Shown: positions 1,281-38,434 of the stretch, piece by piece
Numbering within the stretch: the first letter of the stretch is position 1
Layout of the letters: every line of letters begins with the position of its first letter
Assembly: GCA_051362555.1 (NCBI GenBank)
Contig: CM120643.1
Coordinates: 11,098,001-11,162,000 of the forward strand
DNA: 64,000 bases
Reading direction: 5' to 3'
Source: Lingula anatina
Lineage: Eukaryota > Animalia > Brachiopoda
Made by a program: the position numbers and the translations under genes
Notes under the pieces: model-generated
Seen by the model: the letters and a program-made list of their open reading frames with translations, nothing else
Told to the model about the DNA's origin: nothing
Database searches by the model: none

Positions 1281-1962
1281 TTATATAAGAAAACTCCCAT
1301 TCAACTGTGTTTTTTTTTTAGATGCCTGTTAAGTAGAATACAAAAAGCTGGTGACTATATGAGTATGTTGGAAACAAGAGGAGGCATATCAATCTGTTCA
1401 GCTGATTGCACTTAGCAAGAGTCCCCGCAGAGCTGGGTTGATCCACACAGACTGATGGTGTGTCTATAGGAATGGGGTCTTACATACATGACAAACAAAA
1501 ACTACAAAACAGTTTCACTTATTTGTTATGTCCTCTTGTATTGGGCATTGCACAACCCAAGCATAATAATAACCAAACCTTCTAGACTACTGGAACCTGC
1601 TCTTTTTGGCTTTAAGCAGTTCTTCTGTTGTGGGAGCAGGAACAGGTGCAGTATTTGGACTGAGGTTCCTTGGGTCCCATGGCTCAAGTTGCATCCGTGC
1701 TGTCATGGGACAAATGCTTGTCAGACTCAATGTCACTGCATGAGACTGTAACGTGGGAATGTAATGATATCTTTATAACTTTTTCCCCTTCTACATGTAC
1801 ACTGGATAGGCCACCCATGCTCTTATGTGCTTGCTAATCCAATTTCCATACCTACAAAGTGAGGATCAAATAATTATAATTATCATCTAGCTACATGTAA
1901 TTATAACTTGGACTTTAGAATGAAAAAAATTTTAATTCTTCCTTTGCTCTTAGATTAATTAT

Positions 1963-2120
1963 CCCAGCAGGCACACAACGTTGAATCAACGTTGGCAATT
2001 CAACGTTGAATCATGATTGATAGTTCAACATTGTTTCAACATTAGAAATCTCAATTAACGTTGATTATATGTTGATTTAGCATTGATTATATCTTGATTT
2101 AACATTAAATAAAAGTTGAG
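1963..2120. repeat. Left TIR plus subterminal TCAACGTTGA-like palindromic repeats
   Basis: Repeated CAACGTTGAATCAACGTTG and degenerate copies directly after the CCCAG terminus. Confidence 0.85.
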
Positions 2121-3004
2121 ACAAATAGCATTTTCAATGTCTTTATTTTGTCACTGCATAAAAGGAAAAATGCTGCTAATTTAAGTTAAAATATACATAG
2201 TTTACAACATAGCAATAATAAATAAAAAAAACTAAGAACAACACTTTTTTTTTTACAAAACAAAGCTGCACATCGAATCTGAACTAACACAAAAATTGTA
2301 ATTAAGTATGCATGTACATTGGGGAGGGGAGGGAGAGATTTTTGCACACCTTAACCTAAATTATACTGTACATTGTCATTTTTAAAGTAAATTATAATTC
2401 AAACATATCATTAATAATCATAATCGCTATAGTTCTGTATTAAATAAATCTTGAATAATGAATGAAAAAACATTGTTTTTTAGATGATGGAGAGTTCATT
2501 ATAACAAAATTATAAATAATTAATCATGCAGTAATTAACTGTTTCAATTCAACTTGCATGCTGTCTACAAACTCTGAAAAAAGAATTATGTATGGTACCC
2601 CAGCATAAAACCTCATGTCTCATATCAAACCCCATGTCCCTTTCACTACTACAAATTCAAAAAAGGGCTATGGAAGTTAAATGTCAAGCAACATATCTTG
2701 TCAAAACACTGTATACAGTACGCATGACAACAGAACCAAATTGTAGAGTGAGTGAGTTACTGGCTGCGCTCGGAGCAGATTCTTACATCTTGACGCATGT
2801 GCAGTTAAGTTAGAGAGATAGAAATGGCTGTTGTGGTTGCTTTGATAAATGTTTGTCGATTTTTGTGCAACAAGACGTAGAAGATGAGGTGCTTATACAC
2901 ACGACAGATATGAGTGCAATCTGATGAACTCCACAGTTTAGAGATATAACTGTAAGCATTCTAGCAACGTCCTTCACCAAAATAATAGTTCAACTTCCTA
3001 ATTG

Positions 3005-3111
3005 CTACTTTCTTCCTCCTCCATCTTTTCTTTCTGGTGCCCATTTTAGATACTTAACAATGCTGTCAGAGACTTCCTTCTCTGTAGATCTATATTTTGA
3101 CATCATGACAT
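3005..3111 (-). CDS. DUF4806-like gene, terminal exon 7 (DVMMSKYRSTEKEVSDSIVKYLKWAPERKDGGGRK*)
   Basis: Acceptor TTTTTTTCCAG; TAG stop at 3007-3005; characteristic LKxAPxRxxGGG terminus. Confidence 0.85.
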
Positions 3112-6100
3112 CTGGAAAAAAAAGTGAAGTAAAAATGTAAGCATTTATGTATCGAATGTATGCTGGCAGGTGTGCCTATCATAGCTCATTGAGGGATTCT
3201 AAGAATGAGGTTAAGATTGGGGTTAAATTCCAACTAGGGTGCAAAATGTAAGAACTATTTTTTTAGGCTTAGGTGCCCAAATTGTAGCTGATAGATAGCT
3301 GATAAGTTTATTACAAAAATCAAATTGGGCACAAATTACAGCAGTAAATGTAAAACACAATGCAACATTAATTTAATTACCTTTGATCACCCTACAAAAG
3401 TTGGTGTGCCCAAAAGGAAATTTATTTTTCTTTCCTGAGAAATTCATCGTAGACATGATTCTGTTTGTCATACACCTACAAATAATATTTATAAAACTAG
3501 AGGATCAGAGAGGCGATATCGCCTCTGGATATTGTACCACCAGCTGGAGTAAGCGCATTCATATGGAACCCCCCCCCCCACCAAAAATTTAAAAAATGGA
3601 CGCCACCACCAGTCTATAAAATGCAATAAACAAGAGTTCTAAAAATAAAAAAATAAAAAAAAAATCGAAAAACATAACTGTTAAAATGGTCCAATCAAGC
3701 AGATGTTCAAATTGACCTGTATTTTCCTAACACTGATCACTCCTGTGATTTTCTAGACAATAGGCCTACTGGTTTTCCTTGAAATGCGTTATCAGTATTG
3801 CATATATGCTGACAAAAGAGAAAACCTGGGGACAACAGTAAGCAGATCTCTGCTAGTTTTGAAGATATGAAGGGCAAGAAAATATGCAGAGTTCAGTTTG
3901 TGGTGAAAAAGTAGGTCAAAGGTCAATTTCAAGGTCACAGTATATGACTTCCTATATAAGTTCAATAGTAGCTATGGGCATTTCTTTGCGAATTATGGAG
4001 ATATGAAGGCCAAGAAACATGCAAAGTGCAGTCCATTATAAATAGTAGGTCAAAGGTCAATTTCAAGGTCACAGTAAGATTGCCTGTGTATGACTTCCTA
4101 TTCAAGTTCAATAGTAACTTTGGACGTATCTCTGCCAGTTTTCGAGATATAAGGGATAGAAAATTTGCAAAGTTCAGTTCATGGTGAAAAGTAGGTCAAA
4201 GATCAATTTCAAGGTCACAATAAGATTGCCAGTATATGGCTTCCTATTACAGTTCAACAGTAACTATGGGTGTATCTTTGCCAGTTTTGGAGATATAAGG
4301 GCTGGAAAATTTGCAAAGTTCAGTTCATGGTGAAAAGTAGGTCAAAGGTCAATTTCAGGGTCATATTTAGATTGCCAGTATATGACTTCCTATTCAAGTT
4401 CAATAGTAACTATGAGCGTATTTTTGCCAGTTTTGGAGATATAAAGATCAGAAAACTTGCAAAGTGCAGTACTGAAAAGTAGGTCAAAGGTCAATTTCAA
4501 GGTCACAGTAAGATTACCTGTATATGACTTCCTATTCAAGTTCAATAGTGACTATGGGCGTATCTTTGCCAATTTTGGAGATATAAAGATCAGAAAACTT
4601 GCAAAGTGCAGTTCATCATGAAAAGTAGGTCAAAGGTCAATTTCAAGGTCACAGTTAGATTACCAGTATATGACTTCCTATTCAAGTTCAATAGTAACTA
4701 TGGGCGTATCTCTGTTAATTTTGGAGTATTTCACATTTTCCCCATTGAATATTGCGATGTTGTAATTTTTGATATAGCACAACGCCTAAACCATATCGAA
4801 AACAAAAAAATGGACGCCACCTCCAGTATTGCACTTGACAAGGTCTACAAAATGCAATAAACAAGAGGTCTCTGGCATTTACCGTTCCAGAATTAGAGCG
4901 AGTTTTCAGTTTTATATCTAATGGCTACTTCTCCCGTGAAAATGCACTGATTGACCCCAAACTCCCAAAGATGAAAGGAGTCCCCAATGGTAACCCCTCA
5001 CTATAACAGGAGAGCTAAGGGCTGTGTAGTTTCCAAAAATTAGCACAAACAATTATTTTTTTGCAGAAAATTCCCATTTTTAGAAAATTTTAGCTTGTTT
5101 GACCTTGAAAAAAAGGTCAAAAGTCAAATCCAAGGGCATATTTGGAATCTCCACATATGACTTTCGGTCAGACTTCTATAGTAATTTTTCCCATAATTCC
5201 TTTGGTTTGGGAGATATTCAGCATTGAATTTTCAAAAATTTTGACAAGGGTGCGTTTCAACAAGTGTCACGCCCAGGCCAATGCACCAACTGAGACAAAA
5301 AAAAAACCAGGGTGTTCAAGTTGAGATTATATGTGACCTAAATCCAAGAGATGGGGACACAGGTCCTTGTGGTCTAGGAGGAGAAGCGGTAACGGTGACT
5401 TGTTTCCGGCGCCCGACTGCGGAGCCGGCGGAGCCGCAGGAGCCGGCAGAGCTGTACGAGACGGGTTGGGACTAAAACCATGAGTACCGCCAGCGTACAC
5501 GCTGGTGGTACTAATAAAGGATATATTGAATAAAATCAGAAATGTCTTGGTTTGATCAAGAAAAGTCCAAAAAATTGGAATAATAACCTGCACTTATTTT
5601 TAAAATTCTGATAAAAAGGTTTTTACTGCCAAACAAACCAGTATAACGTAGCTATACACATGTAGGTTCGACTTTTTAATGTAATTAATTTACTAACATA
5701 GACAGAAATGTGTCAAGTGTAAAAGTATTAGTTATCATTTCATAAAGGTTTGATCATTTCTTATACCCGAGTTCTAGGTTTCAGATAATGAAATGTATTT
5801 TACACATTAAACACAGGAAAAAATTAAGTAAATGCATATATATTAGTATTTGTCCTACCTTTGCATGGCCTTTTTAGTGTGATCACACATGTTAATCCCT
5901 CCTATTGCAGCAACTGTGGCTTTCTATCAAATGGAAAAAATAAATGTCATTATTATAAAAATAATAACTAGTTTTTGTAATTATATTATTGAAACTGTGT
6001 GACAAAACTTGCAAATATACAGGCATCAAACAGCAAAACATGCTTTCTTTTTGGTAATTTTAGGTACTGATGTTATATATGAAATGCCCACAGTCACAAG

Positions 6101-8671
6101 ATGGACAGAGACATACATATGTAACATTGATCCATATTGCATGAACTAATAAAAAAGGGAAAAAATCTTCATATTTGAGTTTTGAAAGAGTAAATCTTTT
6201 AAATTTTTAGCTACATGTACTTGTTTGAAATAATTGAATCAAATAAAAACCATAAGTACAAGCATGAAGTTGACTGATTATGTTGCCATTTTCTGCCTAA
6301 AATTAACTGAAATGTGATGAACTTTAACTGTTATAAGTATGTACACAAATAAGCATTTGTGAGGCTAATTTTCAAAATAAAAAATGCATCTTCCTCTCAC
6401 AGATTTGGCTTGTTGGATCAAATCAGTACAACACAAAGACGGTGGTGATTATTATTAGAGCAAGTGAAGAATGATTCAATTCAGTGAAAGATTTAAGTAG
6501 TTTTCAAGTTGTAGTTATACTGATCCTGATGTTACTCCATATCATTCTCATCATTTTTATCAAGTCCACCTGATCAATGATACATAGCATGGACATAATT
6601 TGAACAGAAAAGTAGTATACTTACACAAATATCATATTCTTCTTTGTCCTTCAATGCATTATCAAATTCACTGAAGGAATCCATGGTATCATGTTGTTGC
6701 ATTTGCATTGTTCTCATCTCTGTGTTGTTATTAGATTGATTTTTCTTCATTAGATCTCTTATTTCTGCTAATATGTATAATACTCTTCTCTGAAAACCTG
6801 TGGAAAAAATTTACACTACATATACAAAAAAGACAATTGAGGAATTAGCAAATTTGTCCTCATCCTATGTTACAGGGTACAATTAGGCACTGAAACTTCA
6901 TAAAATTTTTCCTTAGGTAAATTGCTATTTTTGCCCTTTCTAGTCATTGCCTGTCTCAAATATTCATTCAAATTCACCCAATTGCAAAGTCTCCATAAGT
7001 AAGTGTTTAAATTTTGACTTAACAAAATGAAAATTAGTGTCAAAGAAAGAACCTGTGCATTATGTTAAGATTAGTTTCATATTCCCTAATTATTATATCA
7101 TGTTCTATATATGGCATTAACCTAATTCTAAAATTTGAGAATAATAAATGACAACTTCACGTATGCCTTCTGCAAAAAAAAAAAAAAAAAAAAAAAAAAG
7201 GTTCACTCTTGGGGGTTGACATGTACAGATTTTGTCATGAAATTGAAAAAAAAAGTACATACGCTCTTCGGACATTGGAAATGTCGATCTCCTTGGTATT
7301 GGGCTACTTCTGCTATGATGACCCCCTCGACTCATACTCATGCTTCTCTGAGCCATGCGGTCACTGCTTCTGCTACATCTACCAACACGGTCCCTGCTTC
7401 TGCTACGTCTACCAACACGGTCCCTGCTTCTGCTACGTCTACCAACACGGTCCCTGCTTCTGCTACGTCTACCAACACGGTCACTGCTTCTGCTACGTCT
7501 ACCAACACGGTCACTGCTTCTGCTACGTCTACCAACACGGTCCCTGCTTCTGCTACGTCTACCAACACGGTCACTGCTTCTGCTACGTCTACCAAACCGG
7601 TCCCTGCTTCTGCTACGTCTACCAACACTGTCACTGCTTCTGCTACGTCTACCAACACGGTCACTGCTTCTGCTACGTCTACCAACAGGCACGCTCCTGT
7701 CAGGGGGCGTTGGGCTCCTTGGTGGTGGGCTTATTGTTCTAGGAGGAACCCTTCTGTCCATGTTAGCTGCCTCTAAAATGCCAATATACATTATGAGGCA
7801 TCAGTTTTTCTGTCTTTTACCTTTGGCAAAAATGTTTAAAAGATGGTGCTTCTTAACATTGCATACTGAATTTCTTATTAAGCAATTTCTTAGTAGCACT
7901 CTTACCGCTACTACTGCCCCCCGTGGTGAATTCTGCTCCAAAGGTTTTTTTCTTGGGGATTCTCTTCCTAAAAACTCCTAAGTCTTCTTCATCAGTATCT
8001 TCTGTGCAGGTAATGTTAACTGTCTCGCAATCTTTCTTGTTGTCTGTATAATTAAAATATATTATTATCATATCTTTTGTTCCATCTTATGCATGTATCT
8101 AACGTAACTTTCTGCTTTGGTCAAGCAATCTTATTTATAAAAATGAAAAGTGCAGTATTATTTTACAGTATTGAAAATATTCTGAATTCATAGTCAATGT
8201 AGACTAACTATGGGCATAGGCAGGAGAGAGAAATCTGCTCATTAACATGTCCCTTTGCCAATGGATAATTCCAAAACCCTGCATACATGTAGTATACTAC
8301 CTTTACTAATTAATATTGCCAGGTATGAAATGTAATAAATCTGCAATTTTCTTAATATTAAAACGGAGAAAATTTTCAAATGGCACAAACTAGATCTTTT
8401 GCAAACATAAATGATATTGTTTATGAAGCTAAAGCATTAGTAGTGTGTGAAGATTAAACAGAATTCTGTACTGACCAGATGATTTCTTTACCCGCACAAG
8501 AGGGTACTTGATCCAAGTATTTTCAGGTACCCATCTTTCTCTAATTGCTCTCATGGCACCAAGGTTAGTAACATTAGGCGGCCACAGAACCTCATCGTCC
8601 ACCACCCAGTGAGAAGGGATAACCTCCTCTACCTCCACATTGTTCTCCTCCCAAATAACTCTACTCCACAT
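3005..8671 (-). CDS. 7-exon DUF4806-like (BEN-like, TnpA-type accessory DNA-binding) protein, 427 aa, with internal RS-rich repeat
   Basis: Exons 8671-8476, 8043-7906, 7772-7263, 6797-6625, 5923-5859, 3475-3381, 3111-3005 total 1284 nt. All six introns are GT-AG with phases 1,1,1,0,2,1 and there are no internal stops. Motifs typical of DUF4806 proteins of animal EnSpm elements: N-terminal VIPSHWV..VLWPP, FQRRVLYILAEIRDL, IGG, NFSGKKNKFPF, C-terminal YLKWAPERKDGGGRK*. Confidence 0.85.
3381..3475 (-). CDS. DUF4806-like gene, exon 6 (CMTNRIMSTMNFSGKKNKFPFGHTNFCRVIK)
   Basis: Acceptor TTATTTGTAG, donor G|GTAATT; phases match both neighbours. Confidence 0.85.
3497..5514 (-). mobile_element. Non-autonomous Helentron-associated element (HINE/DINE-1-like), nested in intron 5 of the DUF4806-like gene
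   Basis: Read on the minus strand: T-rich flank; 5' subTIR GTACCACCAGC (5511-5501) with its inverted copy (5484-5494); GC-rich simple repeat (~5415-5450); central tandem repeats; 3' subTIR (3534-3544); perfect 18-bp palindrome AGAGGCGATATCGCCTCT (3509-3526); end CTAGTTTT. This is the canonical HINE architecture. Confidence 0.85.
3840..4730. repeat. ~146-bp tandem core repeats of the HINE, about 6 copies
   Basis: GTAGGTCAAAG(G)TCAATTTCA(A)GGTCA at 3911, 4045, 4191, 4337, 4479, 4625. Confidence 0.92.
5859..5923 (-). CDS. DUF4806-like gene, exon 5 (KATVAAIGGINMCDHTKKAMQR)
   Basis: Acceptor TTTGATAG, donor AG|GTAGGA; carries the IGG motif. Confidence 0.8.
6625..6797 (-). CDS. DUF4806-like gene, exon 4 (RFQRRVLYILAEIRDL...EEYDIC)
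   Basis: Acceptor TTTTTTCCACAG, donor T|GTAAGT; 173 nt, open frame. Confidence 0.85.
7263..7772 (-). CDS. DUF4806-like gene, exon 3 (Pro/Ser-rich plus RS-rich repeat)
   Basis: Acceptor ATTTTAG, donor C|GTATGT. The splice phases select the VGRRSRS(S/R)DR frame of ORF 7117..7791. Confidence 0.8.
7358..7687. repeat. 30-bp coding minisatellite, 11 copies
   Basis: CGGTC(A/C)CTGCTTCTGCTACGTCTACCAACA repeated 11 times, nearly perfect. Confidence 0.95.
7906..8043 (-). CDS. DUF4806-like gene, exon 2 (DNKKDCE...TGGSSS)
   Basis: Acceptor TTATACAG, donor G|GTAAGA. Acidic stretch followed by basic RKRIPKKK (NLS-like). Confidence 0.8.
8476..8671 (-). CDS. DUF4806-like gene, coding exon 1 (MWSRVIWEE...VKKSS)
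   Basis: The ATG directly follows the acceptor TTTATTACAG, so an upstream exon is implied. Donor G|GTCAGT. Confidence 0.85.
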
Positions 8672-8739
8672 CTGTAATAAACAGAAAAAGTGTGATCTAC
8701 TACATGCAGACCATTATTATGATGTGTCTGTACATATAT

Positions 8740-9125
8740 CCATCATCTGCGTCTGTCGTCGCCGTCGTTGCCGTCGCCGTGCACTTTTACCGATAACACG
8801 ATAAGTGGAAAACCATTTTACCTTTTGACTTGAAACTTGCAGAACTGATGAATATTCATAATACACAGGTCAAGTTCGAAAATCAGCATGATCGTGTCAC
8901 TTTTAGGGAATTTATGCTGTTTTTTCACTTTTTTCAGCATATATGCAGCACCGATAACACGATAAGTGGAAAACCATTTTACCTTTTGACTTGAAACTTA
9001 CAGAACTGATGAATATTCATAATACGCCAGTCAAGTTCGAAAATCAGCATGATTGGGCCATTTTTAGGGAATTTATGCTGTTTTTTCACTTTTTTCAATA
9101 TAAATGCAACACTGATAACACAATA
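8740..9125 (+). mobile_element. HINE-like fragment: (GCCGTC)n-like microsatellite plus two 161-bp core repeats
   Basis: GTCGTCGCCGTCGTTGCCGTCGCCGT is followed by units starting CCGATAACACGATAAGTGG at 8790 and 8951 that contain TTGAAACTT...GTCAAGTTCGAA. Termini not found. Confidence 0.65.
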
Positions 9126-9621
9126 TAAGAACAAGGCAGCAAAGCTGTCAAATGTACAGACAAAAACCAGAAAATAAAAACGCAGGAAATAGGATACTGT
9201 CAATTCTGATGAACTAATGTATTATGCTTACTGTAACTGCATAGCCAACATCAAATTCTTATTTTGCATAACATTGGATTAGGATGAAAGTAAAATGTGT
9301 ATCAAGCGTAAGACTAAGTTCCAATACCTAGATCAATCTAACAGGATCAATGCAACTCCAAGGGGTTTCTCACTAAATTGCTTTCAGTTTGAGAGTCTTA
9401 GGATTCTGGCATGCCAGTTTCAGTAGGCGTGACAGACAACTAAGCCACTTACATTGATTGCAATTTAGCGAGAATTCCCATGGAGATAGATCGATCCACA
9501 GTTAGCGTGATAGGGTCTGGAAATAGTCCCTAAGGTGTCAGGCTGATAAGAGTTAAACTTTGGAAATGCCAGAATGAGGTACAGTGAAAATTACACACAA
9601 AAAAAAATTGCTTAACTCATT

Positions 9622-9624
<3 letters not shown>

Positions 9625-9684
<60 letters not shown>
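9625..9684. repeat. (AT)30 microsatellite
   Basis: Seen directly. Confidence 0.97.
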
Positions 9685-9688
<4 letters not shown>

Positions 9689-11070
9689 AATTTTTTTTTT
9701 TGGGCTGTATGTCAATCCTAAGAATCATTCTTGTAACTTAACAAAATACAGAAAATGTTACAAAGTAAGAGTACAGGGCTCCTGGCAGATGGGAGTGATA
9801 AGTCACAACTTGAAAATGCCAGTATAGCACTCTATAAACCTGCATTGCCTCCAAAACAGAAAACAATCACACTGGTTTTCAAACACAAGCTGCGCACTTC
9901 TGTCTTATGAAACTTTTCACTAAGTTTCAGTATCGTAAGTAACATGGTTTTCCCTTTATCGCTATCCTGGCAGCAGTGTCCAAAATAGGGTTTTCTTCAA
10001 CTTTCATGCAATAAAACATAATACTTAACAGCATAATGACCATCAAATTTTTTATAAAAAAATAAAAGTATCATGAATATTCAGAAAATGTGATTTGGGA
10101 AGGTCTTCAAGGCCATGGAAGTTCAGAGTCACACTTTCAAAATGCCAAAATGTAAACAAGAGATAACTGTACTGAAATGATTTTCTTTCCATTTTCAACA
10201 CCTTTTTTAAAACAAAATGATCAATAAACTGTCATTTTTAAATGTTCAACTAGGAAAATTGTTGACATAGGAAAAATAGCAATAGAACAATTTTCAATGT
10301 CCAATTTGCTCCATTTGCAGATGCTGAACATAGTGAATGATTAAATCTGACAAACTGCAATGATGAGTTCCTTTCCATTTATGATACTTTATTACACAAT
10401 GCACAATATTATAACAGGTTTACCGTCATTTTTATATAATCAACAAACAATATTGTTAAGAAGCAGAAAATGTCAAAACAACACTTTTACATATCTTATT
10501 AGTTCCATAATGAGACTGTTAACATGCCTAAGAATTAAATCTGAAGAAATAACAATTATATAAATATACAAAAATACAGAAAATGCACAGCACTTCTGGT
10601 GGATGGGAGCATAAAATCACATCTTGAAGATGCTTGTGTTTGAAAAATAATTAAAAAAAATTTTTTAATAAAACGTAAAAAATTCCAATAAAGCTGCTAT
10701 TCAAACTTTTAATCTAGCTGTATTAACTTGATATTAATAACCCCACCAAGTTTGAGAAAAATAAAGCACTGTTATTCATCTATAGCATGTTGGCATAACA
10801 CAATCTTTTTGTTGTAAATTTATTTGCAATGTTAAACACCATTTATCTGCACAATTATCACCAAATCCTAATTTTGTGACACAGTTAAGAGAGCTAAACC
10901 TATGGGACTTTACAGGGAAATCTCAAGGAGTGTTTTATGTAATCTCATTTAATGGCCAATTGAAAATTAATGAGTAGGCAAGTGACTTTATAGACCTTAA
11001 TTTAATTAGTGATCACCCAAGGGACAATTTTATAGACTGTCATCCATACAGTACCATCATATAGCACAAA

Positions 11071-11445
11071 GGTGTTGCATACATGCTGAAAAAAGTGAAA
11101 AAACAGCATTACTTCCCTAAAAATGACCCGATGATGCTGATTTTCAAACTTGACCTGCATATTATGAATATTCATTAGTTCTGCAAGTTTCAAACCAAAA
11201 GGTAAAATGGTTTTCCACTTATCGTGTTATCGGTGCTGCATATATGTTGAAAAAAGTGAAAAAACAGCATATCTACCCTAATAATGACCCGATCATGCTG
11301 ATTTTCGAACTTGACCTGAATATTCATTAGTTCTGCAAGTTTCTGTGTCTGTACATAAAAACGGATTGGCCAATTGTCATTATCCTCACAGGAGTGGTCA
11401 ATCTTACTAAAATGCAGGTTGAGTTCGAAAATCAGCATCAATTAT
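11071..11445 (-). mobile_element. Inverted, diverged copy of the same 161-bp HINE-like core repeats
   Basis: Reverse complement of 8790-9120; unit starts at 11071 and 11232. Confidence 0.7.
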
Positions 11446-12208
11446 TAGGCACGTTATCAGTCTCATTATTGAACTAATAAGATGCGTAAAAGTGTTTGTT
11501 TGATATTTCCTGCATCTTTACAACTGTAAATTCTGTAGTGTACGTAGCTGTACGAAGACATTTTCATGACTTGACAATGATTAATCAACATAGACATTTT
11601 TTGACATGTAATTTATTTTTTAAAAATTATATGATATCTTGTTGGCGTAAATTTTTCAAAATATACATTTGAATTGCAGACTATTAACTACATGTAATAT
11701 TTAAATGTTAAAATTGCAATATTTCCTGAGCATTTTTTTTTTTTTGCTGATATATAAAAAGGTGCTAAAGGGAAATTGTACTAGTGTCTACAAGTCTTTC
11801 AAAAGTTAAATACCATATAAAAAATACTTCGCTATTAAAAAATGAAAAGAATGTACATTCAATGGAAATGTCTGCTTTTATTTCACAATAAAATATTGTA
11901 TGATGTACAGTTACATAAAGAAAAGATAAAGTAAAAAACAAGATCACAGTATTGTAGGCAGGATTAATGGGAAAAAATCCAAGGAAACAGAAGTAAACTT
12001 CTATTATTTCTGAGAAGAATCTTTTTGCAAATAAAATATATTATTCAAAAAGAAAACTGGTCATTTAGTAAAGGGGCGCTGGATAAAAATTAAATTTCAA
12101 TCTGCTTTAGAAATTTGTAAAAAAAAATTCATTAATCTAAATAGTGAAGTAATCATGCATGTAGCTGTTGTAAATTAACTTGAATGATGGATTCCTTCAT
12201 GTATCCTC

Positions 12209-12212
<4 letters not shown>

Positions 12213-12258
<46 letters not shown>
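12213..12258. repeat. (AT)23 microsatellite
   Basis: Seen directly. Confidence 0.97.
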
Positions 12259-12260
<2 letters not shown>

Positions 12261-12599
12261 TGAGGTGCCTTCAATTTAACTTGCATGTTGGCTTTTCTGG
12301 AAAGAAAAAAAAAGATTTAGATGTATTTAAAAAAGAGAATTCTAGATATGCAAAAATATTTGTGCACAATATCTTACTTACATTATGTAAATAGACTTGC
12401 AGTAACTGTTGTAAACTTATATGTTGGCTTCTCTGAAGAAAATACATATAAATGTATTTAAAAAAGAGAATTCTGGGTATACAAAAATATATCAGTGGAT
12501 ATAAGAATATGAAGAACACATGCACACACACACACACATACATTTTTTAGATAGAGAGAGGGACAACTCTTCCATTATAACTGACTAATTTAAATGTCA

Positions 12600-13044
12600 G
12601 TTCAATATGATTGAATCAATGTTGAATCAAGGTGAAAAACTTACTCAAACATCAACATTCAAAAATGCAAGTTGAATTAAAGTTGAAATATTGTTGGTTT
12701 ATCAACTCAATCTTACTTCAAACTTGAATCAATGTTGATATGCCAACTTTGAATTTGTTGTCGTTGAATCAAAGTTGAATCAATGTTGAAATGTCAACGT
12801 TGAATTTGTTGTCGTTGAATCAACGTTGAATCAACGTTGAAATGCCAATGTTGAATTTGTTGTCGTTGAATCAATGTTGAATCAATGTTGAAATGCCAAC
12901 GTTGAATTTGTTGTCGTTGAATCAACGTTGAAATGTCAACGTTGAATTATGGTCGTTGAATCAACATTGATTCAACGTTTATCAACGTCTCAACATAAAT
13001 TCAACATTGATTCAACGTTGAATCAACGTTGTGTGCCTGCTGGG
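12600..13044. repeat. Right subterminal repeat array plus right TIR
   Basis: Many TCAACGTTGA/TCAATGTTGA palindromes in an 11-bp register. They form 51-bp units starting near 12740, 12791, 12842 and a shorter one at 12893. The array ends in GTGTGCCTGCTGGG. Confidence 0.88.
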
Positions 13045-13199
13045 ATGCTTTTATATTTTCAAGAAAGTTGGGAACATCTAATTTAAAACATTTTATTATG
13101 TACCAGTTGACAGTATTTCATAAAAAAGTGTGAATAAATTGTGAGTCACAAAGCTGCTTTTCAGTTACAGTATCCAACAAACATTAAATATTTCAGTAG

Positions 13200-13545: not shown

Positions 13546-15328
13546 TTATTATTATTATTATTATTTGCGATATTAAGGCACAATATTAGCACTTTCACAT
13601 AAATGTGATTTATTCTGAAATGAGAGGCCTATATATAAGTACCGGTAGCTATGGGCAAATGGCTTGGATAATATCAGTTTATTTTGTAATACGTTTATAT
13701 GCACACATCATGAAAACAATTGACAAATAATTTCCCATTGAAATGCCTGCAAAACTGTATGAATAAATAATTTGGTGAAATATTTCATAACCCTATGGAC
13801 AGCAGACTCACTGACATAACTGCCAATGACACAAAAATATACTGTCAAAATGTTACCGGTACTTTTCATAACGTCATGCAGTACTTGAACACGTGCACAC
13901 CCCTTGTGTGTAAACAAACCACTGCACTGCTCAAAGTCGGAAGCTCCCTCCGCCAGCGGTCTCACACGGCACAGTACCTGTGCCTGGTCCTGCAAAAAAA
14001 TTGATGCCTCAATTGACGCCCCAGCCTGCTCCTTGATATCAAAATTAAACCTAACAACACTAAAAAATACCAGAAAAAAAAAAAAAAAAAAAAAAAAAAC
14101 GGGAAAAATCACTAATTTTTTTCACAGCACTTCATTCGTTTATAACAATACGTGATTAGCCAGATAGGGTTGAAAAAATTTTTTTCTTCATTATTGTGAT
14201 CAGAAGGTGTGTTTGGTCATTTGTAGTCAGTATAAAGTACTAGAACAGTGGTTTTGTCAACATTAAGGAAGAAATAGCGCAAAAACTCTCCCTGCCCCCC
14301 TCTCTCCAAATCCTATTCTCAGGAGTGCTTTTTGGCAATCCTTAAAGCTGAAATTGGGGGCTTTAATGAAGTGACCTGGACGCGTTTCCACATTTTTTAA
14401 GAATGACAGGTGTGGTAGATTGATTACAGTCACATTTCGGAAAAATCAGAGACGGGTCGATCCTGGGTGATTTTGAGTGATTTTCATAAGGTCCGGATAT
14501 GGCAGTTTTCTTCAATTTTGGCCAGATAGGGTTGAAAAACTTTTTTCTTCATTATTGTGATCAGTAGGTGTGTTTGGTCATTTGTAGTCAGTATAAAGTA
14601 CAAGAACAGTGGTTTTGTCAACATTAAGGAAAAAATAGAGCAAAAACTCTCCCTGCCCCACCTCTCTCCAAATCCTGTTCTCAGGAGTGCTTTTTGGCAA
14701 TCTTTAAACCTGAAATTGGGGGCTTTAATAAAGTGACCCGGGCGCGTTTCCACATTTTTTATGAATGACAGGTGTGGGAGATTGATTTTAGTCACATTTC
14801 AGAAAAATCGGAGATGGGTCGATCCTGGGTGATTTTGAGTGATTTTCATAAGGTCCGGATATGACAGTTTTCTTCAATTTTGGCCAGATAGGATTGAAAA
14901 ATTTTTTTCTTCATTATAATGTCAGGTAGGTGTGTTCGGTCATTTGTAGTAAGAATAAAGTGCTGGAATAGTGGTGGTGTCAACATTAAGGAAGAAATAG
15001 AGCAAAAACTGTCTCCCTCTCAGATTCTGTTCTCAGAGCTTATTTTTGGATCATCTTTAAAGCTAGAATTGGGGGCCTTGATGAAGTGACCCGGGCGCGT
15101 TTCCACATTTTTTATGAATGACAGGTGTGGTAGATTGATTTTCGTCACTTTTTGGAAAAATCGGAGACGGGTCGATTTTTGGTGATTTTGAGTGATTTTG
15201 AACAGTGCCGGCACTGTGAGATTTCTTCAATTTTGGCCAGGTAGGGATGAAAATTTTTTTTCTTCATTATAGTGTCAGGTAGGTGTGTTCGGTCATTTGT
15301 AGTAAGAATAAAGTGCTGGAAGAGTGGT

Positions 15329-15790
15329 TGTTGCGGATCCCACATCAAAACAAACAAACGACGGGAAATGTTCACACTTTATTTCACGCACACTGACATG
15401 GATATGGTGAAACTAAAAATAACAAAATAATGAAATATAAATACCAAACTAATTATACAAAATACACAAATATAACATAAATTGAATACAAATATAAAAA
15501 GAAATAATAAATTAATTATAAGAAACGGAAATGTTGTGCAAATGATTAACAATAGAATTGAATACAATACGTACAGAGAAATGTGGCTTTCCCGTCCAAA
15601 TGTTGATCCACAAATTTTGCCTACTAAAACTTCAGACTCGGCGACCTGAGCCTTCGCTCGTCAAATACAACGTGGCCGCGCCCAGAAACTGCTGCATACA
15701 GTATATATACAGAGTAAATGATTTGCATAATAATACAAAGCTGACTAGTGATACGATTGTAAACGCAAATTGTTGGCATAAGCGACAACA
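15329..15790 (-). repeat. 3' LTR (462 bp), TGTTG...CAACA, preceded by short purine tract AAGTGGGAG
   Basis: TG...CA termini; AATAAA on the minus strand near 15378-15383; PPT-like tract at 15791-15799. Confidence 0.96.
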
Positions 15791-15931
15791 CTCCCACTTA
15801 AACAAAAAAAAAAAAATTAATTGTACAAACACACACACAAAAAATGCATTTATCTACCTCACTATATACTCAAACAAACACATATTCACTATATTATCTG
15901 TCACAAACAAACAAACAAAAATAAATAATAT

Positions 15932-16115
15932 TACTTATTCTTATTCAAATCTACTTACAATTTATTGTTTAAACAATGTCACTTAAAAAATATTGTAACA
16001 ATATAATACATATCTTAATAGTCTACTTATTCTTATACAAATTTACTTACAATTTATTGTTTAAACAATGTCACTTAAACAATATTGTAATAATATAACA
16101 CATATCTTAACAGTC
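15932..16115. repeat. 92-bp tandem duplication in the BEL 3' UTR, overlapping the stop codon
   Basis: TACTTATTCTTAT..AAAT.TACTTACAATTTATTGTTTAAACAATGTCACTTAAA occurs twice, 92 bp apart. Confidence 0.85.
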
Positions 16116-17063
16116 TCCCTCTAAAAATACTAATTTTGTGATGGGTCTATTATAGCGAGACGATTTAGTACGAACCGTAGCGCTACGCACTAAGCTATCT
16201 CTCCCAATCTTAACATTTTCTACTACAGCTAGAGGCCATGAACCACGGGGCATAGAAGCATCAACAATAAGGACAAGGTCCCCCTTCTTTAAAATTCGCT
16301 TGATCTCCCGCCACTTAGGTCTAGACTGAAGCAAAGATAAATATTCCCTAGTCCGTCGCTTCCAGAACTGGGAAACAAGAAATTGACAATGTCTCCACAA
16401 CCGTCTATACGCATCTGCTATTTCAAAATCACCCCAAGGAAGAGAGGGATTGTTACGGAGTAGTAACAGATGGTTAGGAGTAAGAGCGTCACAGTCATTT
16501 GAGTCAGTGCTGACTTTTGTCATGGGTCTTCCATTTATAATGCTTTCGCACTCACATAAAATTGTTTGTAATACCCAATCAGATAATGACTTGGTAGACA
16601 CATTTGACAACAGTGCTGTCAGGATTTTTCTGACAGTTCTTATCATGCGTTCCCAGATCCCTCCATGATGGGATGCATGTGGGGGGTTAAAATTCCACTC
16701 GACGCCTCTGCGTCTTGTTTCCCTAAGTATTTTACTCTTGTCAAGCTGACGTAAGCTTCGCGCTAGCTCACTTTGAGCACCAATAAAATTCGTAGCATTG
16801 TCACTATAAAGTTTGGAAGGACATCCTCTTCTCGCGACAAAACGGAAAAACCCATTGAGAAACGCGTCTGTACTCAAATTTTCCAACACCTCAATATGCA
16901 ACGCCCGTGTTTTGAAACAAGTAAAAATGCATCCATAACGCTTTACGTCAGAACGTCCTACTTTCACAACAAGTGGCCCGAAAATATCGATGACGACAAT
17001 ATCAAAAGGAGGCCCCCCTGCGCTACACCTGTCCTCGGGCAAATCCGCCATTTTCTGCGACAT
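16107..17063 (-). CDS. BEL/Pao integrase core and DUF5641-like C-terminus, separated from the polyprotein by a frameshift
   Basis: QKMADLP, DIFGP, SDNATNF, GGIWERM (DDE), LTPNHLL, FWKR..REYL, RPITKL. Confidence 0.92.
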   Translation of the reverse strand: MSQKMADLPEDRCSAGGPPFDIVVIDIFGPLVVKVGRSDVKRYGCIFTCFKTRALHIEVLENLSTDAFLNGFFRFVARRGCPSKLYSDNATNFIGAQSELARSLRQLDKSKILRETRRRGVEWNFNPPHASHHGGIWERMIRTVRKILTALLSNVSTKSLSDWVLQTILCECESIINGRPMTKVSTDSNDCDALTPNHLLLLRNNPSLPWGDFEIADAYRRLWRHCQFLVSQFWKRRTREYLSLLQSRPKWREIKRILKKGDLVLIVDASMPRGSWPLAVVENVKIGRDSLVRSATVRTKSSRYNRPITKLVFLEGDC

Positions 17064-20000
17064 AGAACGCGTAGAGCTTTTTGCAGATTACGCAGTTTTT
17101 GACGATTTTCTTCACCAAATTTCTTCCATCGACTATCCAGTACTTCCGACGGACAATACTATGGGTCCACTCAGTTCCCATATGTGCTCCACCGTGAAAG
17201 TCGCGAATGATTGAAGAGCAAATTTTGTGAGATCTGGGCAAAATGGGGGGCTGTTTACATGCTAATGATGAATGAATAAGCCGACCGCCAACAACTAAAA
17301 TCCCGTCCTTCACAATAGGAGATAACTTGTAGATTGCACTCGATCGCGAAATAACGCCGGACTCACTCAAAGATTGAATTTCACGACCGAATACTTCGCT
17401 TTGGACTGCTCTGAAGATGTAATAGAAATAATCAGGCATGACTTCCCATTTAATCCCGAGAGCCTTTGCATGAGAATCGAACGCTAATTCTTTCACCTCT
17501 TTAGCTCTGTCATCAACAGGGATAGCTCTATTTAATTCGAAGTCATTTACTACGAATTGAGTGAGATCGAAACCGCCGCGGCTCACCGCGCGTTTTGTGC
17601 CTTCAATGACCTCACGAGCCTCTTTTCTGGTTTTCACGGATTTGAACAAATCATCTACATAAAAAGATTTCAACACGGTGTTTCTGATCAATTCTGTGAC
17701 TTCATGGTCTTTTACTGTGCGTCTTAGAGCATAACAGCTTGCGCTCCCTGACCACTTTCCACCAAACAAATGGACGCGCATGCGATAGTGAACAAGATTT
17801 TCCCCGTCGCGCCATAAGAATCTGAGCGAATTTCTATCGCATTCGGGCACCATAACTTGATAGTACATGGCCTTGATGTCCGCCATTATCGCGTATTTAT
17901 GTTGACGAAATCGCAACAAAATACCTAACAGCTTGTTTATGAAATCTGGGCCTTGTTTGGTCTGAGAATTTAGACTAACACCCTGCCATTTGCACGCACA
18001 ATCATAAACAACTCGCAATTTCTCAGGTTTTGAGGGATTCAAAACATGTCTGTGCGGAATATACCATACTGTGCCGTCGCGCAGATCAATTTCATCATCT
18101 GGGACTTTCTCAACATAACTATCGGAAATCAAATCCAATATGTTGTCGTGATATTTTTCGTATAACCCGTCCTTCTCCAGCTTACGTTCTAAACTGTGTA
18201 AGCGGTCGAGCGCCACGTTCTTGTTATACGGAAATTTCGGACACCCTGTTTTCCACGGTATCGGTAACACGTAATGACCGTTGTCCTCACTAACAGTCGA
18301 TTCCCACAGGGCCAAAACTTCTCTATCTTCTTGCGAGAAAGAAACCGCGCTCTCATTTTCGAGTCGCCATAAATTCTCAATATTTTCTTCAACCGAGAGA
18401 AAATTGACTGAAATGTCAGATGCCAACTTTTCGTTCAACGGGCCGTTCAATGTCCAACCTAAGCGCGAACGAGACGCGTAAAGTTTCAAATTTCCGCTTT
18501 CATCGCAACGCGTCTCTAACGGCATGATCAAATGCGCGTTGTCCATTCCAATAATAATATCTGCGTGACCCGATCCTGTGTTACTGAAAGGTATATCTTT
18601 CAAATACGGATACGCATCAGTGTTAACTCGCGAATTCGCTCGCACACGAATTTGTGGGATAACTAACACATTTGACAAACAATAGGAGACATTCAAATCA
18701 TGAACAGGTGACACCTGAAATGACACAACGTGAGATTTTGTACTTTGTGAACAACTCAACGTGTTCATTTGATAGTTCAAGCTTTGTGAGTGTTTGAGAG
18801 AAAGTTCATTTGCAAGACGTTCAGAAATAAATGTTGAAGTAGAACCATTGTCCAAAAGAGCGGAAGCTATCACGTGTCCGTTTACTCTGACGGACACAAT
18901 GGGCAGATTCACATGATTGGAATTAGAGTGAACACTAGCGTTCGTCACGGTGTCTGAAATGCCGGTTCTTGCGGTTTTGGAGGACGACTTCTCACTTTGA
19001 CCGAAATGAATAAACTTTGAGTGCTTACGTCCACATCCTGGCACAGTACACACAGTATTTTTCCGACAATCTTTAGCAAAATGTCCAGCTGAAAAACAAT
19101 TGTGACACAAGCGATTTTGCTTTATGATATCAAAACGAGCTTGAACGCTTTTGGCCTTGAAGACCTCACAATGAAACAAATCATGCGGCTGATGACAGAC
19201 AACACATGGAGGGAGATCACGCTGAACAGGGGGTTCAAAAGGGGGGTCAATGGGCCCTTGGGCGGTATAGGAAAAAGTACTAGATGACTTACGGCCAGGA
19301 TGATATACAGGACTGTCCCCATAAACCGGGTCATTGGCCTCTGTTGCTTGTTGTGACACAAAATCTACAAATTGTGAGAATGTGGGATACCTTTTCTCAA
19401 CACTTTTAATTTTGAGTGCTTTATATCGCCATTTGTCTACTATCTTTACTCTACACCTTTTCACAGTATCTAAGATTGATTTTTGATTCTCAACCTCACT
19501 TAGCATGTCTAACTTTTCCAAAGTGACACTAGCAACTTGCAAATCATCTGCCAATTTTTGTAATTCATCTGGCGTATTTACATTTTTGCCTGATTTGAGA
19601 TCATTAATAATACGCTGGGCTACTAAGTGATCATTACCAAATCTGGCCTTCAAAATTTCCCGTGCTTTATCATTACCCGATTCACCAATTAGAACACAAT
19701 TTTTTATTGCATCTTTGGCAGCACCAGACGTGTATTGCAATAACCTGGTCAACTTGATATTTTTATCATCAATTTTGCTGTCAATAGTTTCGTCAAATAC
19801 TGCACAAAAGCTATAGAAATCAGATGGATTTCCAGAAAATGTGTCTATTTCTGCTTTTGGTAATGAAAGTAAATTGATAAGTTTTTGCTCAGATAATTGT
19901 TCAGATTCACTTTCTGGTTTTAGACTTTTCATGAAAGTAACACCTGCTCCAATACCTCTTATGTAGCTATCTTGTACCTGAGAAAACCAAGCTTCACTGG

Positions 20001-20223
20001 TTTCAATGTCAGAGTCAGTTTCAAGTAGAGAATGATACGCATCATGACAGTTTTCAAAGCTTGTAAACACTTCTTTCAACTTACTAACGTTTGCGTCGAC
20101 AGTCTTTGGTTCATCCGCGGCTATAGCACGCTCTATCACCCCAATCACTCGTGTAACAGCGCCCTTCCGTGCCCTACGTGCGAGTCGCAGCTTCTCGATT
20201 TCTTGATCCTTGCTTTCACTCAT
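17023..20223 (-). CDS. BEL/Pao Gag-Pol polyprotein: DUF1759-type Gag, 3 zinc knuckles, aspartic protease, RT, integrase zinc finger; RNase H region missing
   Basis: Knuckles CVVCHQPHDLFHC, CHNCFSAGHFAKDC, CTVPGCGRKHSKFIH; protease LLDNGS; RT KLRVVYDC, ADIKAMYYQV, FYVDDL; integrase H..AHMG...CVIC. No YDPLG/FSDAS block. Confidence 0.93.
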   Translation of the reverse strand: MSESKDQEIEKLRLARRARKGAVTRVIGVIERAIAADEPKTVDANVSKLKEVFTSFENCHDAYHSLLETDSDIETSEAWFSQVQDSYIRGIGAGVTFMKSLKPESESEQLSEQKLINLLSLPKAEIDTFSGNPSDFYSFCAVFDETIDSKIDDKNIKLTRLLQYTSGAAKDAIKNCVLIGESGNDKAREILKARFGNDHLVAQRIINDLKSGKNVNTPDELQKLADDLQVASVTLEKLDMLSEVENQKSILDTVKRCRVKIVDKWRYKALKIKSVEKRYPTFSQFVDFVSQQATEANDPVYGDSPVYHPGRKSSSTFSYTAQGPIDPPFEPPVQRDLPPCVVCHQPHDLFHCEVFKAKSVQARFDIIKQNRLCHNCFSAGHFAKDCRKNTVCTVPGCGRKHSKFIHFGQSEKSSSKTARTGISDTVTNASVHSNSNHVNLPIVSVRVNGHVIASALLDNGSTSTFISERLANELSLKHSQSLNYQMNTLSCSQSTKSHVVSFQVSPVHDLNVSYCLSNVLVIPQIRVRANSRVNTDAYPYLKDIPFSNTGSGHADIIIGMDNAHLIMPLETRCDESGNLKLYASRSRLGWTLNGPLNEKLASDISVNFLSVEENIENLWRLENESAVSFSQEDREVLALWESTVSEDNGHYVLPIPWKTGCPKFPYNKNVALDRLHSLERKLEKDGLYEKYHDNILDLISDSYVEKVPDDEIDLRDGTVWYIPHRHVLNPSKPEKLRVVYDCACKWQGVSLNSQTKQGPDFINKLLGILLRFRQHKYAIMADIKAMYYQVMVPECDRNSLRFLWRDGENLVHYRMRVHLFGGKWSGSASCYALRRTVKDHEVTELIRNTVLKSFYVDDLFKSVKTRKEAREVIEGTKRAVSRGGFDLTQFVVNDFELNRAIPVDDRAKEVKELAFDSHAKALGIKWEVMPDYFYYIFRAVQSEVFGREIQSLSESGVISRSSAIYKLSPIVKDGILVVGGRLIHSSLACKQPPILPRSHKICSSIIRDFHGGAHMGTEWTHSIVRRKYWIVDGRNLVKKIVKNCVICKKLYAFYVAENGGFARGQV

Positions 20224-20298
20224 ATTGTAGTTTCTTACATGGAAATGGTGTCGTCTAAGGGTAATTCAGTTGTCCAATGTCTAGATTTCTCTTTTCAC

Positions 20299-20760
20299 TA
20301 TTGCGGATCCCACATCAAAACAAACAAACGACGGGAAATGTTCACACTTTATTTCACGCACACTGACATGGATATGGTGAAACTAAAAATAACAAAATAA
20401 TGAAATATAAATACCAAACTAATTATACAAAATACACAAATATAACATAAATTGAATACAAATATAAAAAGAAATAATAAATTAATTATAAGAAACGGAA
20501 ATGTTGTGCAAATGATTAACAATAGAATTGAATACAATACGTACAGAGAAATGTGGCTTTCCCGTCCAAATGTTGATCCACAAATTTTGCCTACTAAAAC
20601 TTCAGACTCGGCGACCTGAGCCTTCGCTCGTCAAATACAACGTGGCCGCGCCCAGAAACTGCTGCATACAGTATATATACAGAGTAAATGATTTGCATAA
20701 TAATACAAAGCTGACTAGTGATACGATTGTAAACGCAAATTGTTGGCATAAGCGACAACA
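20299..20760 (-). repeat. 5' LTR (462 bp)
   Basis: Identical by eye to 15329-15790 except at 20300: minus-strand end ...GCAATA instead of ...GCAACA. Confidence 0.96.
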
Positions 20761-35700: not shown

Positions 35701-36709
35701 CAGATTCTGTTCTCAGAGCTTATTTTTGGATCATCTTTAAAGCTAGAATTGGGGGCCTTGATGAAGTGACCCGGGCGCGTTTCCACATTTTTTATGAATG
35801 ACAGCTGTGGTAGATTGATTTTCGTCACTTTTTGGAAAAAATCGGAGATGGGTCGATTTTTGGTGATTTTGAGTGATTTTGAACAGTGCCGGCACTGTGA
35901 GATTTCTTCAATTTTGGCCAGGTAGGGATGAAAATTTTTTTTCTTCATTATAGTGTCAGGTAGGTGTGTTCGGTCATTTGTAGTAAGAATAAAGTGCTGG
36001 AAGAGTGGTGGTGTCAACATTAAGGAAGAAATAGAGCAAAAACTCTATCTCCCCCCCCCCCTCTCAGATTCTGTTCTCAGAGCTTATTTTTGGATCATCT
36101 TTAAAGCTAGAATTGGGGGCCTTGATGAAGTGACCCGGGCGAGTTTCCACATTTTTTATGAATGAGAGGTGTGGTAGATTGATTTTCGTCACTTTTTGGA
36201 AAAATCGGAGACGGGTCGATTTTTGGTGATTTTGAGTGATTTTGAACAGTGCCGGCACTGTGAGATTTCTTCAGTTTTGGCCAGTTAGGGATTAAAATTT
36301 TTTTCTTCATTATAGTGTCAGATAGGTGTGTTTGGTCATTTGTAGTAAGAATAAAGTGCTGGAAGAGTGGTGGTGTCAACATTAAGGAAGAAATAGAGCA
36401 AAAACTCTGTCTCCCCCCCCCCTCTCAGATTCTGTTCTCAGAGCTTATTTTTGGATCATCTTTAAAGCTAGAATTGGGGGCCTTGATGAAGTGACCCGGG
36501 CGCGTTTCCACATTTTTTATGAATGACAGGTGTGGTAGATTGATTTTCGTCACTTTTTGGAAAAATCGGAGACGGGTCGATTTTTGGTGATTTTGAGTGA
36601 TTTTGAACAGTGCCGGTGTAACATGAAAATCTGACTCCCATGAAAATGTGACTCCCCAGTCAGATTTTCATTATGAAAATGTGACTCCCCAGTCAGATTT
36701 TCATAATGA

Positions 36710-37790: not shown

Positions 37791-38434
37791 TCCACTTAAT
37801 CGCCTATTGTCTCCCCTATGTTATTTAATATTCAATGATCATTTCAACACCTTTTCTTTTAGGATACTTTATGAAAAATATATTGGAAATATTTAAAGGT
37901 TTGTTGATAAAATAGTGAAAGCATTAAAAAGAAATCATGAAAATCTTTATTTTTACACCCATGAGATTTGGACTCCCATGGAGAAAAGGACCTATTTTGT
38001 ATTCAGTGACCATACCACTGTTTTCCACATTGTTTACATAGAGATGGATATTTTGTCATTATTTGAAAGTTTGATGATGAAAATTTTGGTCAATATTTAA
38101 AAAACAAGTATCCATCTTTATTCTTGTAGGTTTTGCACTCCCATTTCAAAACACTACATTTTTAAGACAAGAAATTGGCCCCATCGCCTTTTTGATTTAA
38201 TTCTTCCTATATGGCATACCCAGCAAAACACTTCCTTTTGTTTTCCCATTATTTTCCCCAAAGCTGGATGAAAGATGGGGGTTAATTAAGCAAAAAGGAT
38301 AATAAGTATGCATTCTTGCGCCCAAAGGACTTTGACGACCCATCTTACAAATCAAATGTTTCATATTTAATATTTTTTTTCCTTTAAGCTACGACATATG
38401 ATTAAGCTACCACCAAGCATGTCACAGTCATATC

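What the first reader, a model, noticed from the sequence alone, without database searches (positions are those of the whole stretch)
1963..13044. Transposase-less 11-kb EnSpm/CACTA-type element that keeps a fully intact spliced DUF4806/BEN-like gene
Seen: TIRs, AT TSD and subterminal arrays are intact, and a 7-exon, 427-aa stop-free gene missed by the ORF track can be assembled with canonical splice sites. No transposase ORF is apparent. Secondary insertions (HINE, HINE fragments, microsatellites) all fall outside coding exons. Known: CACTA elements typically pair a TnpD transposase with a TnpA-type protein that binds subterminal repeats. Inference: this is either a family that keeps only the accessory protein and borrows transposase in trans, or a gene being domesticated next to a satellite array. 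The exons are a small target, so their avoidance is only weak evidence of selection.
Basis: partly seen in the sequence, partly recalled or inferred. Interest (0 to 1): 0.8.

Follow-up and report, generated by a model that had tools for sequence, protein, structure and literature searches.

The report
Transposase-less transposon keeps intact helper gene
An 11-kb cut-and-paste transposon, likely from a lamp shell (brachiopod), shows no transposase but carries an unbroken seven-exon gene predicted to make a BEN-type DNA-binding protein, likely the element's own helper; we saw almost no RNA from it, so it is likely an ordinary young, non-autonomous copy and not a tamed host gene.

Summary
Observation confirmed: 32-bp TIRs (31/32, CCC..GGG), AT on both flanks, subterminal arrays, and a 7-exon, 427-codon minus-strand gene with six GT-AG introns. 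A Lingula anatina RefSeq model aligns across all six junctions (392/415 identical) but has a frameshifted tail. Pfam misses the protein itself. However, 61 of 105 homologues hit DUF4806, and a model of a Lingula sibling matches BEN domains best (top five, Z 10.3-6.0). No transposase family was found in 75 of 105 upstream frames; that region is mostly nested repeats. Lingula has sibling genes, and one contig joins the TIR to a diverged last exon, so the gene belongs to a transposon family. Four RNA runs gave almost no exon reads and no listed junction. Selection is not shown (p=0.09), and a young copy could be intact by chance. New here: the arms hold 24 CAACGTTG-like motifs (interior 0), and 9 of 13 variants are CpG transitions; this is a candidate methylation-sensitive binding site. 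Helper-only Harbinger elements are a published parallel. This scan already noted DUF4806/BEN genes in such elements in other genomes. Verdict: a variant of a known kind; domestication unlikely.

The parts
1961..1962 (.). left copy of 2-bp target-site duplication (AT)
1963..1994 (+). left TIR, 32 bp, starts CCC
   Evidence: 31/32 identical to right TIR
1976..2119 (.). left subterminal repeats (5 CAACGTTG-like motifs)
2176..2600 (.). segment with far higher summed DNA-contig depth than its neighbours; unresolved high-copy repeat in the 3' untranslated side
   Evidence: table 2
3005..3111 (-). coding exon 7 with stop; end of the DUF4806/BEN-like domain
3381..3475 (-). coding exon 6
3495..5520 (-). 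HINE-like nested element in intron 5: central 146-bp array (3938-4726) and a palindrome near each end; its end lies about 18 nt from the exon-6 acceptor
   Evidence: (loose ends at 3494/3495); layout as in PMC7492417 passages
5859..5923 (-). coding exon 5
6625..6797 (-). coding exon 4; start of the conserved C-terminal region
7263..7772 (-). coding exon 3 with 11 x 30-bp Arg/Ser repeat (7358-7687)
7906..8043 (-). coding exon 2 (acidic/basic linker)
8476..8671 (-). coding exon 1: conserved Trp-rich beta domain; the ATG directly follows an AG acceptor
8718..11524 (.). nested dispersed repeats (161-bp units in inverted pairs, related to part of the intron-5 insert; AT microsatellite); likely where the transposase once lay (inferred)
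11525..12600 (.). AT-rich stretch (GC 25.7%), longest open frame 91 aa; likely promoter and non-coding first exon (inferred; donor-like sites near 12377/12381)
12611..13031 (.). right subterminal array (51-bp units; 19 CAACGTTG-like motifs)
13013..13044 (-). right TIR
13045..13046 (.). right copy of TSD (AT)

Best explanation
This is an 11-kb DNA transposon with intact CCC ends and a 2-bp duplication, likely a young deletion derivative of an animal CACTA/EnSpm (TRC) element that lost its transposase and kept its own second gene, whose protein is predicted to fold as a BEN DNA-binding domain and would bind the CpG-centred CAACGTTG repeats in the element's arms, as maize TnpA is recalled to do for Spm. 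Shown: ends, gene anatomy, family membership of the protein, sibling genes in the species, near-silence in four RNA runs. Inferred: a non-coding first exon near the right end would splice to exon 1; movement needs a transposase from an autonomous relative; the arms have been methylated; the reading frame is open mainly because the copy is recent, not because the host needs it.
For: Ends; CCC termini with a 2-bp TSD are described for animal TRC elements (PMC1636069 passages; PMC4298943 passages). Gene. DUF4806: 61 of 105 aligned homologues at E<=0.01; the Mytilus homologue, 44% identical over 137 aa, reaches the Pfam cut-off; a profile of 24 homologues (the two Lingula siblings left out) scores residues 283-427 at E 5e-52. 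BEN fold: model of sibling P0005 (73/88 identical, pLDDT 83.8); the five best of 48,161 chains are all BEN domains, Z 10.3 (rmsd 2.1, 82 aligned) to 6.0, next unrelated 5.5; Foldseek's first 12 rows are BEN domains. Family: three Lingula models on contigs of three different lengths; contig X3 record 23 joins 27 TIR letters to a last exon and adjoining intron with 25 differences over 3039-3217; named homologues come from bivalves, fish, a nemertean, a coral, Hydra and crayfish (21 of 150 looked up). Motif: 24 copies within one mismatch in 623 bp of arms, 0 in 10,460 bp of interior; 9 of 13 variants are CpG transitions. Youth is enough: modelled chance of an open frame is 0.45 at 0.5% and 0.20 at 1% neutral divergence (assumed indel rate).
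Against: Pfam gives no family for the single exons or for P0001 at E<=1. No Foldseek row reaches E<=0.001, and the tool warns that Z below about 13 can be a common arrangement for helical proteins. The fold was modelled on a sibling, not on the window's protein. No transposase of this family was found, so the superfamily rests on the ends; against two printed TRC/EnSpm TIRs the match is 8 of 11 and 6 of 10 (compared by eye), short of Repbase's 10-of-11 rule. Binding to the repeats was not tested. Several large nested insertions suggest some age; at 2% divergence the chance of an open frame falls to 0.04. The CpG variants are not independent because units were duplicated in tandem.
Confidence: 0.68

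Rival explanations
1. Division of labour: a helper-only subfamily spreads and is selected to keep the BEN gene, because it supplies the DNA-binding partner while a rare copy supplies transposase, as proposed for MADF-only Harbinger-1M in Caenorhabditis inopinata.
For: Open 427-codon frame with canonical splice sites despite nested insertions. Sibling changes in exon 7 lean synonymous, 4 of 9 against 20% of sites. Interior contig depth is about twice the flank in X1 (284-420 against 153-172). Precedent: PMC13668399 abstract and passages, which itself calls the trans supply hypothetical.
Against: p=0.086 on an incomplete list (137 rows hidden), and the sibling may be an autonomous family. The closest database copy is frameshifted in the conserved tail. 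Exons 1-4 have mean depth 0-1.7 in four RNA runs. Contig depth is not a copy number by the tool's own warning.
Confidence: 0.18
2. The gene is being domesticated by the host, for example as a chromatin or satellite-binding factor beside the 362-bp satellite.
For: Intact frame; BEN domains are host transcription factors (PDB titles); the satellite begins about 1.1 kb from the right TIR.
Against: Both TIRs and the TSD are intact; siblings exist; near-identical copy frameshifted; almost no RNA; no exact arm motif occurs in the satellite.
Confidence: 0.05
3. The ends belong to another superfamily with 2-bp duplications, or the gene is captured host cargo and not part of the transposition machinery.
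For: No transposase seen; 2-bp TSDs also occur in Harbinger relatives and Plavaka (PMC12730594 passages); the strict terminal rule is not met with the two TIRs in print.
Against: CCC ends, 2-bp TSD and subterminal arrays fit TRC; a diverged sibling has the same end beside the same gene; DUF4806 is expanded in Hydra in a table dominated by transposon domains (PMC7642931 passage).
Confidence: 0.09

Closest known systems
Animal TRC / EnSpm elements: SmTRC1 and relatives (PMC1636069: abstract, passages, section 8); Spongebob_HMa = EnSpm-4N1_HM (PMC4298943: passages)
   Same: CCC termini, 2-bp TSD, spliced non-transposase product; SmTRC1's abundant short transcripts skip the transposase ORF and probably come from truncated copies.
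   Different: No Transposase_21 ORF here. The passages read do not assign the non-transposase protein to a family; here it is DUF4806/BEN-like.
Maize En/Spm TnpA/TnpD (as summarised in PMC1636069 passages; primary paper PMC21109 not held)
   Same: Two-protein design, subterminal repeats, a DNA-binding partner tied to methylation state (analogy).
   Different: CACTA ends and 3-bp TSD in plants (3 bp recalled); no sequence homology to TnpA was tested; binding here is predicted only.
Harbinger-1M_cIno, MADF-only PIF/Harbinger elements (PMC13668399: abstract, passages)
   Same: Transposase-less element with an intact DNA-binding partner gene.
   Different: Other superfamily and domain. There a new insertion was caught and 14 of 19 MADF-only loci are intact; here one intact copy is seen and activity is not shown.
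DUF4806 (PF16064), a BEN subtype according to Pan et al. 2023 (not held; seen only as cited in 10.1101/2023.12.06.570431 and PMC10789644 passages)
   Same: Homologues hit DUF4806; the sibling model matches BEND6, Bsg25A, BANP, NACC1, BEND3.
   Different: This protein is below Pfam detection, has an unclassified N-terminal beta domain and an Arg/Ser linker, and sits inside a transposon.

Membership tests
Animal TRC (CACTA/EnSpm) | TIRs beginning CCC | tested here: met
Animal TRC (CACTA/EnSpm) | 2-bp direct repeat at both flanks | tested here: met
   no empty site seen, so duplication itself is not proven
Animal TRC (CACTA/EnSpm) | Repbase rule for non-autonomous elements: terminal 11 bases match a member with at most one mismatch | tested here: inconclusive
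   8/11 to EnSpm-4N1_HM and 6/10 to the Aedes TRC as printed; Repbase itself not available
Animal TRC (CACTA/EnSpm) | CMC-type DDE transposase (Transposase_21) in the element or in a TIR-matching partner | tested here: inconclusive
Animal TRC (CACTA/EnSpm) | repeated motifs inside both ends | tested here: met
Animal TRC (CACTA/EnSpm) | several copies or related elements in the genome | tested here: met
   sibling gene models; TIR-to-exon contig; copy number not measured
Animal TRC (CACTA/EnSpm) | alternatively spliced transcripts | tested here: inconclusive
   none of the 15 listed joints is a predicted intron (235 hidden); exons nearly uncovered; tissues unknown
DUF4806 (PF16064) | score above the Pfam cut-off | tested here: not met
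   exons singly and P0001: no hit at E<=1; the joined window protein was not scanned
DUF4806 (PF16064) | homology to DUF4806-positive proteins over the domain | tested here: met
BEN domain | BEN fold | tested here: met
   sibling model; five best VIA matches all BEN; Foldseek agrees in rank but no E<=0.001
BEN domain | sequence-specific DNA binding | not testable with these tools
   needs a binding assay
Tudor-like domain (exon 1) | Tudor fold | tested here: inconclusive
   confident model (pLDDT 93.2); best Z 3.5 to eRF1, Tudor rows 3.2, 3.2, 2.9; nothing clear in Foldseek
Domesticated transposon gene | loss of mobile ends and of sibling copies | tested here: not met
Domesticated transposon gene | expression and purifying selection | tested here: inconclusive
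HINE (intron-5 insert) | central tandem array, terminal palindrome, dispersed copies | tested here: met
   subTIRs not mapped

The most novel reading that the evidence does not exclude
A brachiopod CACTA family has split its two genes: helper-only copies are selected to make a BEN protein that reads the methylation state of CAACGTTG repeats at the element ends and licenses a rare transposase copy, the animal counterpart of TnpA working purely in trans.
Probability: 0.15. Interest if true: 0.72.

Novelty: new variant of a known kind. Interest (0 to 1): 0.38.

Why it matters
The partner protein of animal CACTA elements is poorly described. I found no paper linking DUF4806 or BEN to EnSpm/CACTA in the listings (open-access library only; Repbase Reports and Pan et al. 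2023 were not readable). This copy offers an intact gene and its likely binding array side by side, so the TnpA analogy and its methylation sensitivity can be tested with one binding assay. It also warns that RefSeq names such as 'kinase fray2-like' or 'SRRM2-like' hide these genes. As a locus it is probably a silent non-autonomous copy, and this scan has already noted the gene-element link in other genomes.

Tried and rejected
No whole genome is held, so there was no genome-wide TIR search or dN/dS. No RNA holder was listed by the run index; raw RNA runs were laid instead. Pfam on single exons and on P0001 gave nothing. PDB sequence searches with both domain profiles gave nothing credible. 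TIR patterns: 0 metagenome hits for the 28-mer, 6 for a 22-mer; none of the 6 had a paired end, a related gene or an evident transposase frame; 0 in viral contigs. Related-locus scans found nothing in viral or prokaryotic collections. P0068's N-terminus looked from memory like an EnSpm transposase start, but neither a homologue search nor the Atlas supported it; dropped. No transposase domain among 18 longer homologues. With no transposase probe in hand, the suggested tBLASTn was not run; tblastn of 183 stored proteins against 8672-13044 gave one 27-residue hit (E 0.001), taken as chance. An empty site could not be read from the DNA lay: three listed contigs stop at 1956-1957, and the tables were cut. 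The Atlas gave only unnamed or DUF4806-bearing clusters among its leading hits for the N-domain. Exon avoidance by insertions rejected as evidence. Of the 150 representative hits, 26 matched neither conserved domain and were dropped; 105 of the remaining proteins went into A1. PMC6431247 passages added nothing. No complex prediction was run.
Full report
Observation. The element runs from 1963 to 13044. Its TIRs match at 31 of 32 positions, start with CCC, and are the only such pair in the window. AT flanks both ends. The arms carry an 8-bp palindrome, CAACGTTG: 11 exact copies, all in the arms, against 0.74 expected; 24 copies within one mismatch in 623 bp, none in the 10,460-bp interior. Seven minus-strand exons join into 427 codons and a stop, with six GT-AG introns. 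The start codon directly follows an acceptor, which implies a non-coding first exon (inference).

Independent check of the gene. An exon-1 search returned one protein, Lingula anatina RefSeq XP_013403246.1. It aligns without gaps across all six junctions at 392 of 415 residues, lacks one 10-residue repeat unit, and differs at five positions outside the repeat. After residue 411 it reads into another frame of exon 7 and loses the family's conserved tail. Whether it is an allele, a sibling or an assembly error I cannot tell. The window's tail matches that of two further Lingula models (73 and 77 of 88 identical) and of homologues, so the window copy has the family-typical end.

What the protein is. 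Pfam finds nothing in the exons or in P0001. A full HMMER search gave 397 hits at E<=0.001. Of the 150 listed, 38 match both conserved domains, 51 the C-terminal one, 35 the N-terminal one and 26 neither. Of 105 aligned, 61 hit DUF4806. A model of sibling P0005 has five BEN domains as its five best matches among 48,161 chains (Z 10.3, 8.8, 8.3, 7.1, 6.0; next 5.5). Foldseek ranks BEN domains first but none reaches E<=0.001. DUF4806 is called a BEN subtype in a paper citing Pan et al. 2023 (passage); the original was not held. The exon-1 domain folds confidently but matches only weakly, Tudor domains among the rows; I leave it unassigned. An Arg/Ser repeat links the two domains.

Transposase. 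Of 105 stop-to-stop frames of 25 aa or more overlapping 8700-12700, 75 were scanned, plus 8 elsewhere; none hit a transposase family. RNA reads of mostly 90-95% likeness with many loose ends cover 8718-11524, marking it as dispersed repeats, partly related to the intron-5 insert. What remains is about 1.1 kb at 25.7% GC with no frame above 91 aa, shorter than the 1,683-bp SmTRC1 ORF. An intact transposase does not fit; decayed traces are not excluded because no probe was available. That the transposase lay here, upstream of the gene, rests on unchecked notes of this scan from other genomes, which I could not test.

Family or single host gene. Three Lingula models lie on contigs of different lengths. 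In DNA contigs of four runs the left end and the gene's 3' part are laid more deeply than the flank (X1: flank 153-172, interior 284-420, left arm 1292), though the tool says depth is no copy number. One 651-base contig carries 27 TIR letters and, some 445 bases on, a last exon and adjoining intron with 25 differences. I read this as a related element with the same end and gene. Named homologues come from mussels, oysters, fish, a nemertean, a coral, Hydra and crayfish.

Expression and selection. Four RNA runs (1.3-1.8 billion letters each; 3 studies at most; tissues unknown) gave mean depth 0-1.7 over the bins holding exons 1-4, while nested repeats reached about 1,100. None of the 15 listed joints is a predicted intron; 235 were hidden. 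Low minus-strand signal near the 3' end (up to 3.5) may come from siblings. Nine listed sibling differences in exon 7 are 4 synonymous and 5 not, p=0.086. Insertions would miss the exons by chance with probability 0.25-0.63, and an unselected frame stays open with probability 0.45, 0.20 and 0.04 at 0.5, 1 and 2% divergence. Selection is therefore neither shown nor excluded.

Mechanism. I commit to a non-autonomous TRC/EnSpm derivative (0.68) whose second gene is the element's helper. By analogy with maize TnpA, which is needed for transposition and acts on methylated Spm promoters (passages), the BEN domain would bind the arm repeats and help a transposase supplied in trans. Nine of 13 motif variants are CpG transitions (2 of 24 possible changes; nominal p 1e-7, overstated by tandem copying), which suggests methylated arms. 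Solved BEN domains include complexes with methylated DNA (titles). Binding is untested. Rivals: selected helper-only family (0.18), other superfamily or cargo (0.09), domestication (0.05).

Comparison and novelty. It works like a truncated SmTRC1 and parallels MADF-only Harbinger-1M. Membership in TRC rests on ends and arrays; the strict 11-base rule was not met with the two TIRs I saw in print. I found no paper linking DUF4806/BEN with EnSpm in the listings, but this scan has noted it in other genomes, including broken transposase-less copies. What this locus adds is an intact helper gene beside a CpG-decayed candidate binding array. No supplements were read. New variant of a known kind; interest 0.38.

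Noticed in passing
window 15329-20760: BEL/Pao-like LTR retrotransposon on the minus strand inside the 362-bp satellite: 5-bp TSD, LTRs identical over the 451 bases compared, two frames of 1080 and 326 aa (DUF1759, protease, weak RT, integrase zinc finger; DUF5641); at 5.4 kb it looks internally shortened.
   Followed up: partly
window 14156-15329 and 20760-64000: 362-bp satellite, 97-98% homogeneous in the long arrays, more diverged (89%) in the first copies beside the element.
   Followed up: no
window about 36617-39066: Insert in the satellite with 184-bp tandem arrays at both ends and 33-bp repeats in opposite orientation; looks like a foldback or non-autonomous DNA element.
   Followed up: no
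window 7358-7687: The Arg/Ser repeat varies in unit number between the window and the RefSeq copy; RS-rich linkers recur in bivalve and fish homologues and lead to RefSeq names such as SRRM2-like, SON-like, PRP4-like.
   Followed up: partly
window 3477-3495: The HINE-like insert ends about 18 nt from the exon-6 acceptor and may disturb the branch point of intron 5.
   Followed up: no
window 8476-8671: The exon-1 domain has five invariant tryptophans in 23 sequences, folds confidently, and has no Pfam family or clear PDB match.
   Followed up: partly
L002:87, L003:3789, L004:6382, L005:6105: Single ends with nearly the same TIR and 3-6 arm motifs within 500 bp in metagenome contigs; similar ends therefore occur in other DNA, host organisms unknown.
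   Followed up: partly
window about 1340-1460: Short very high-copy repeat in the left flank.
   Followed up: no
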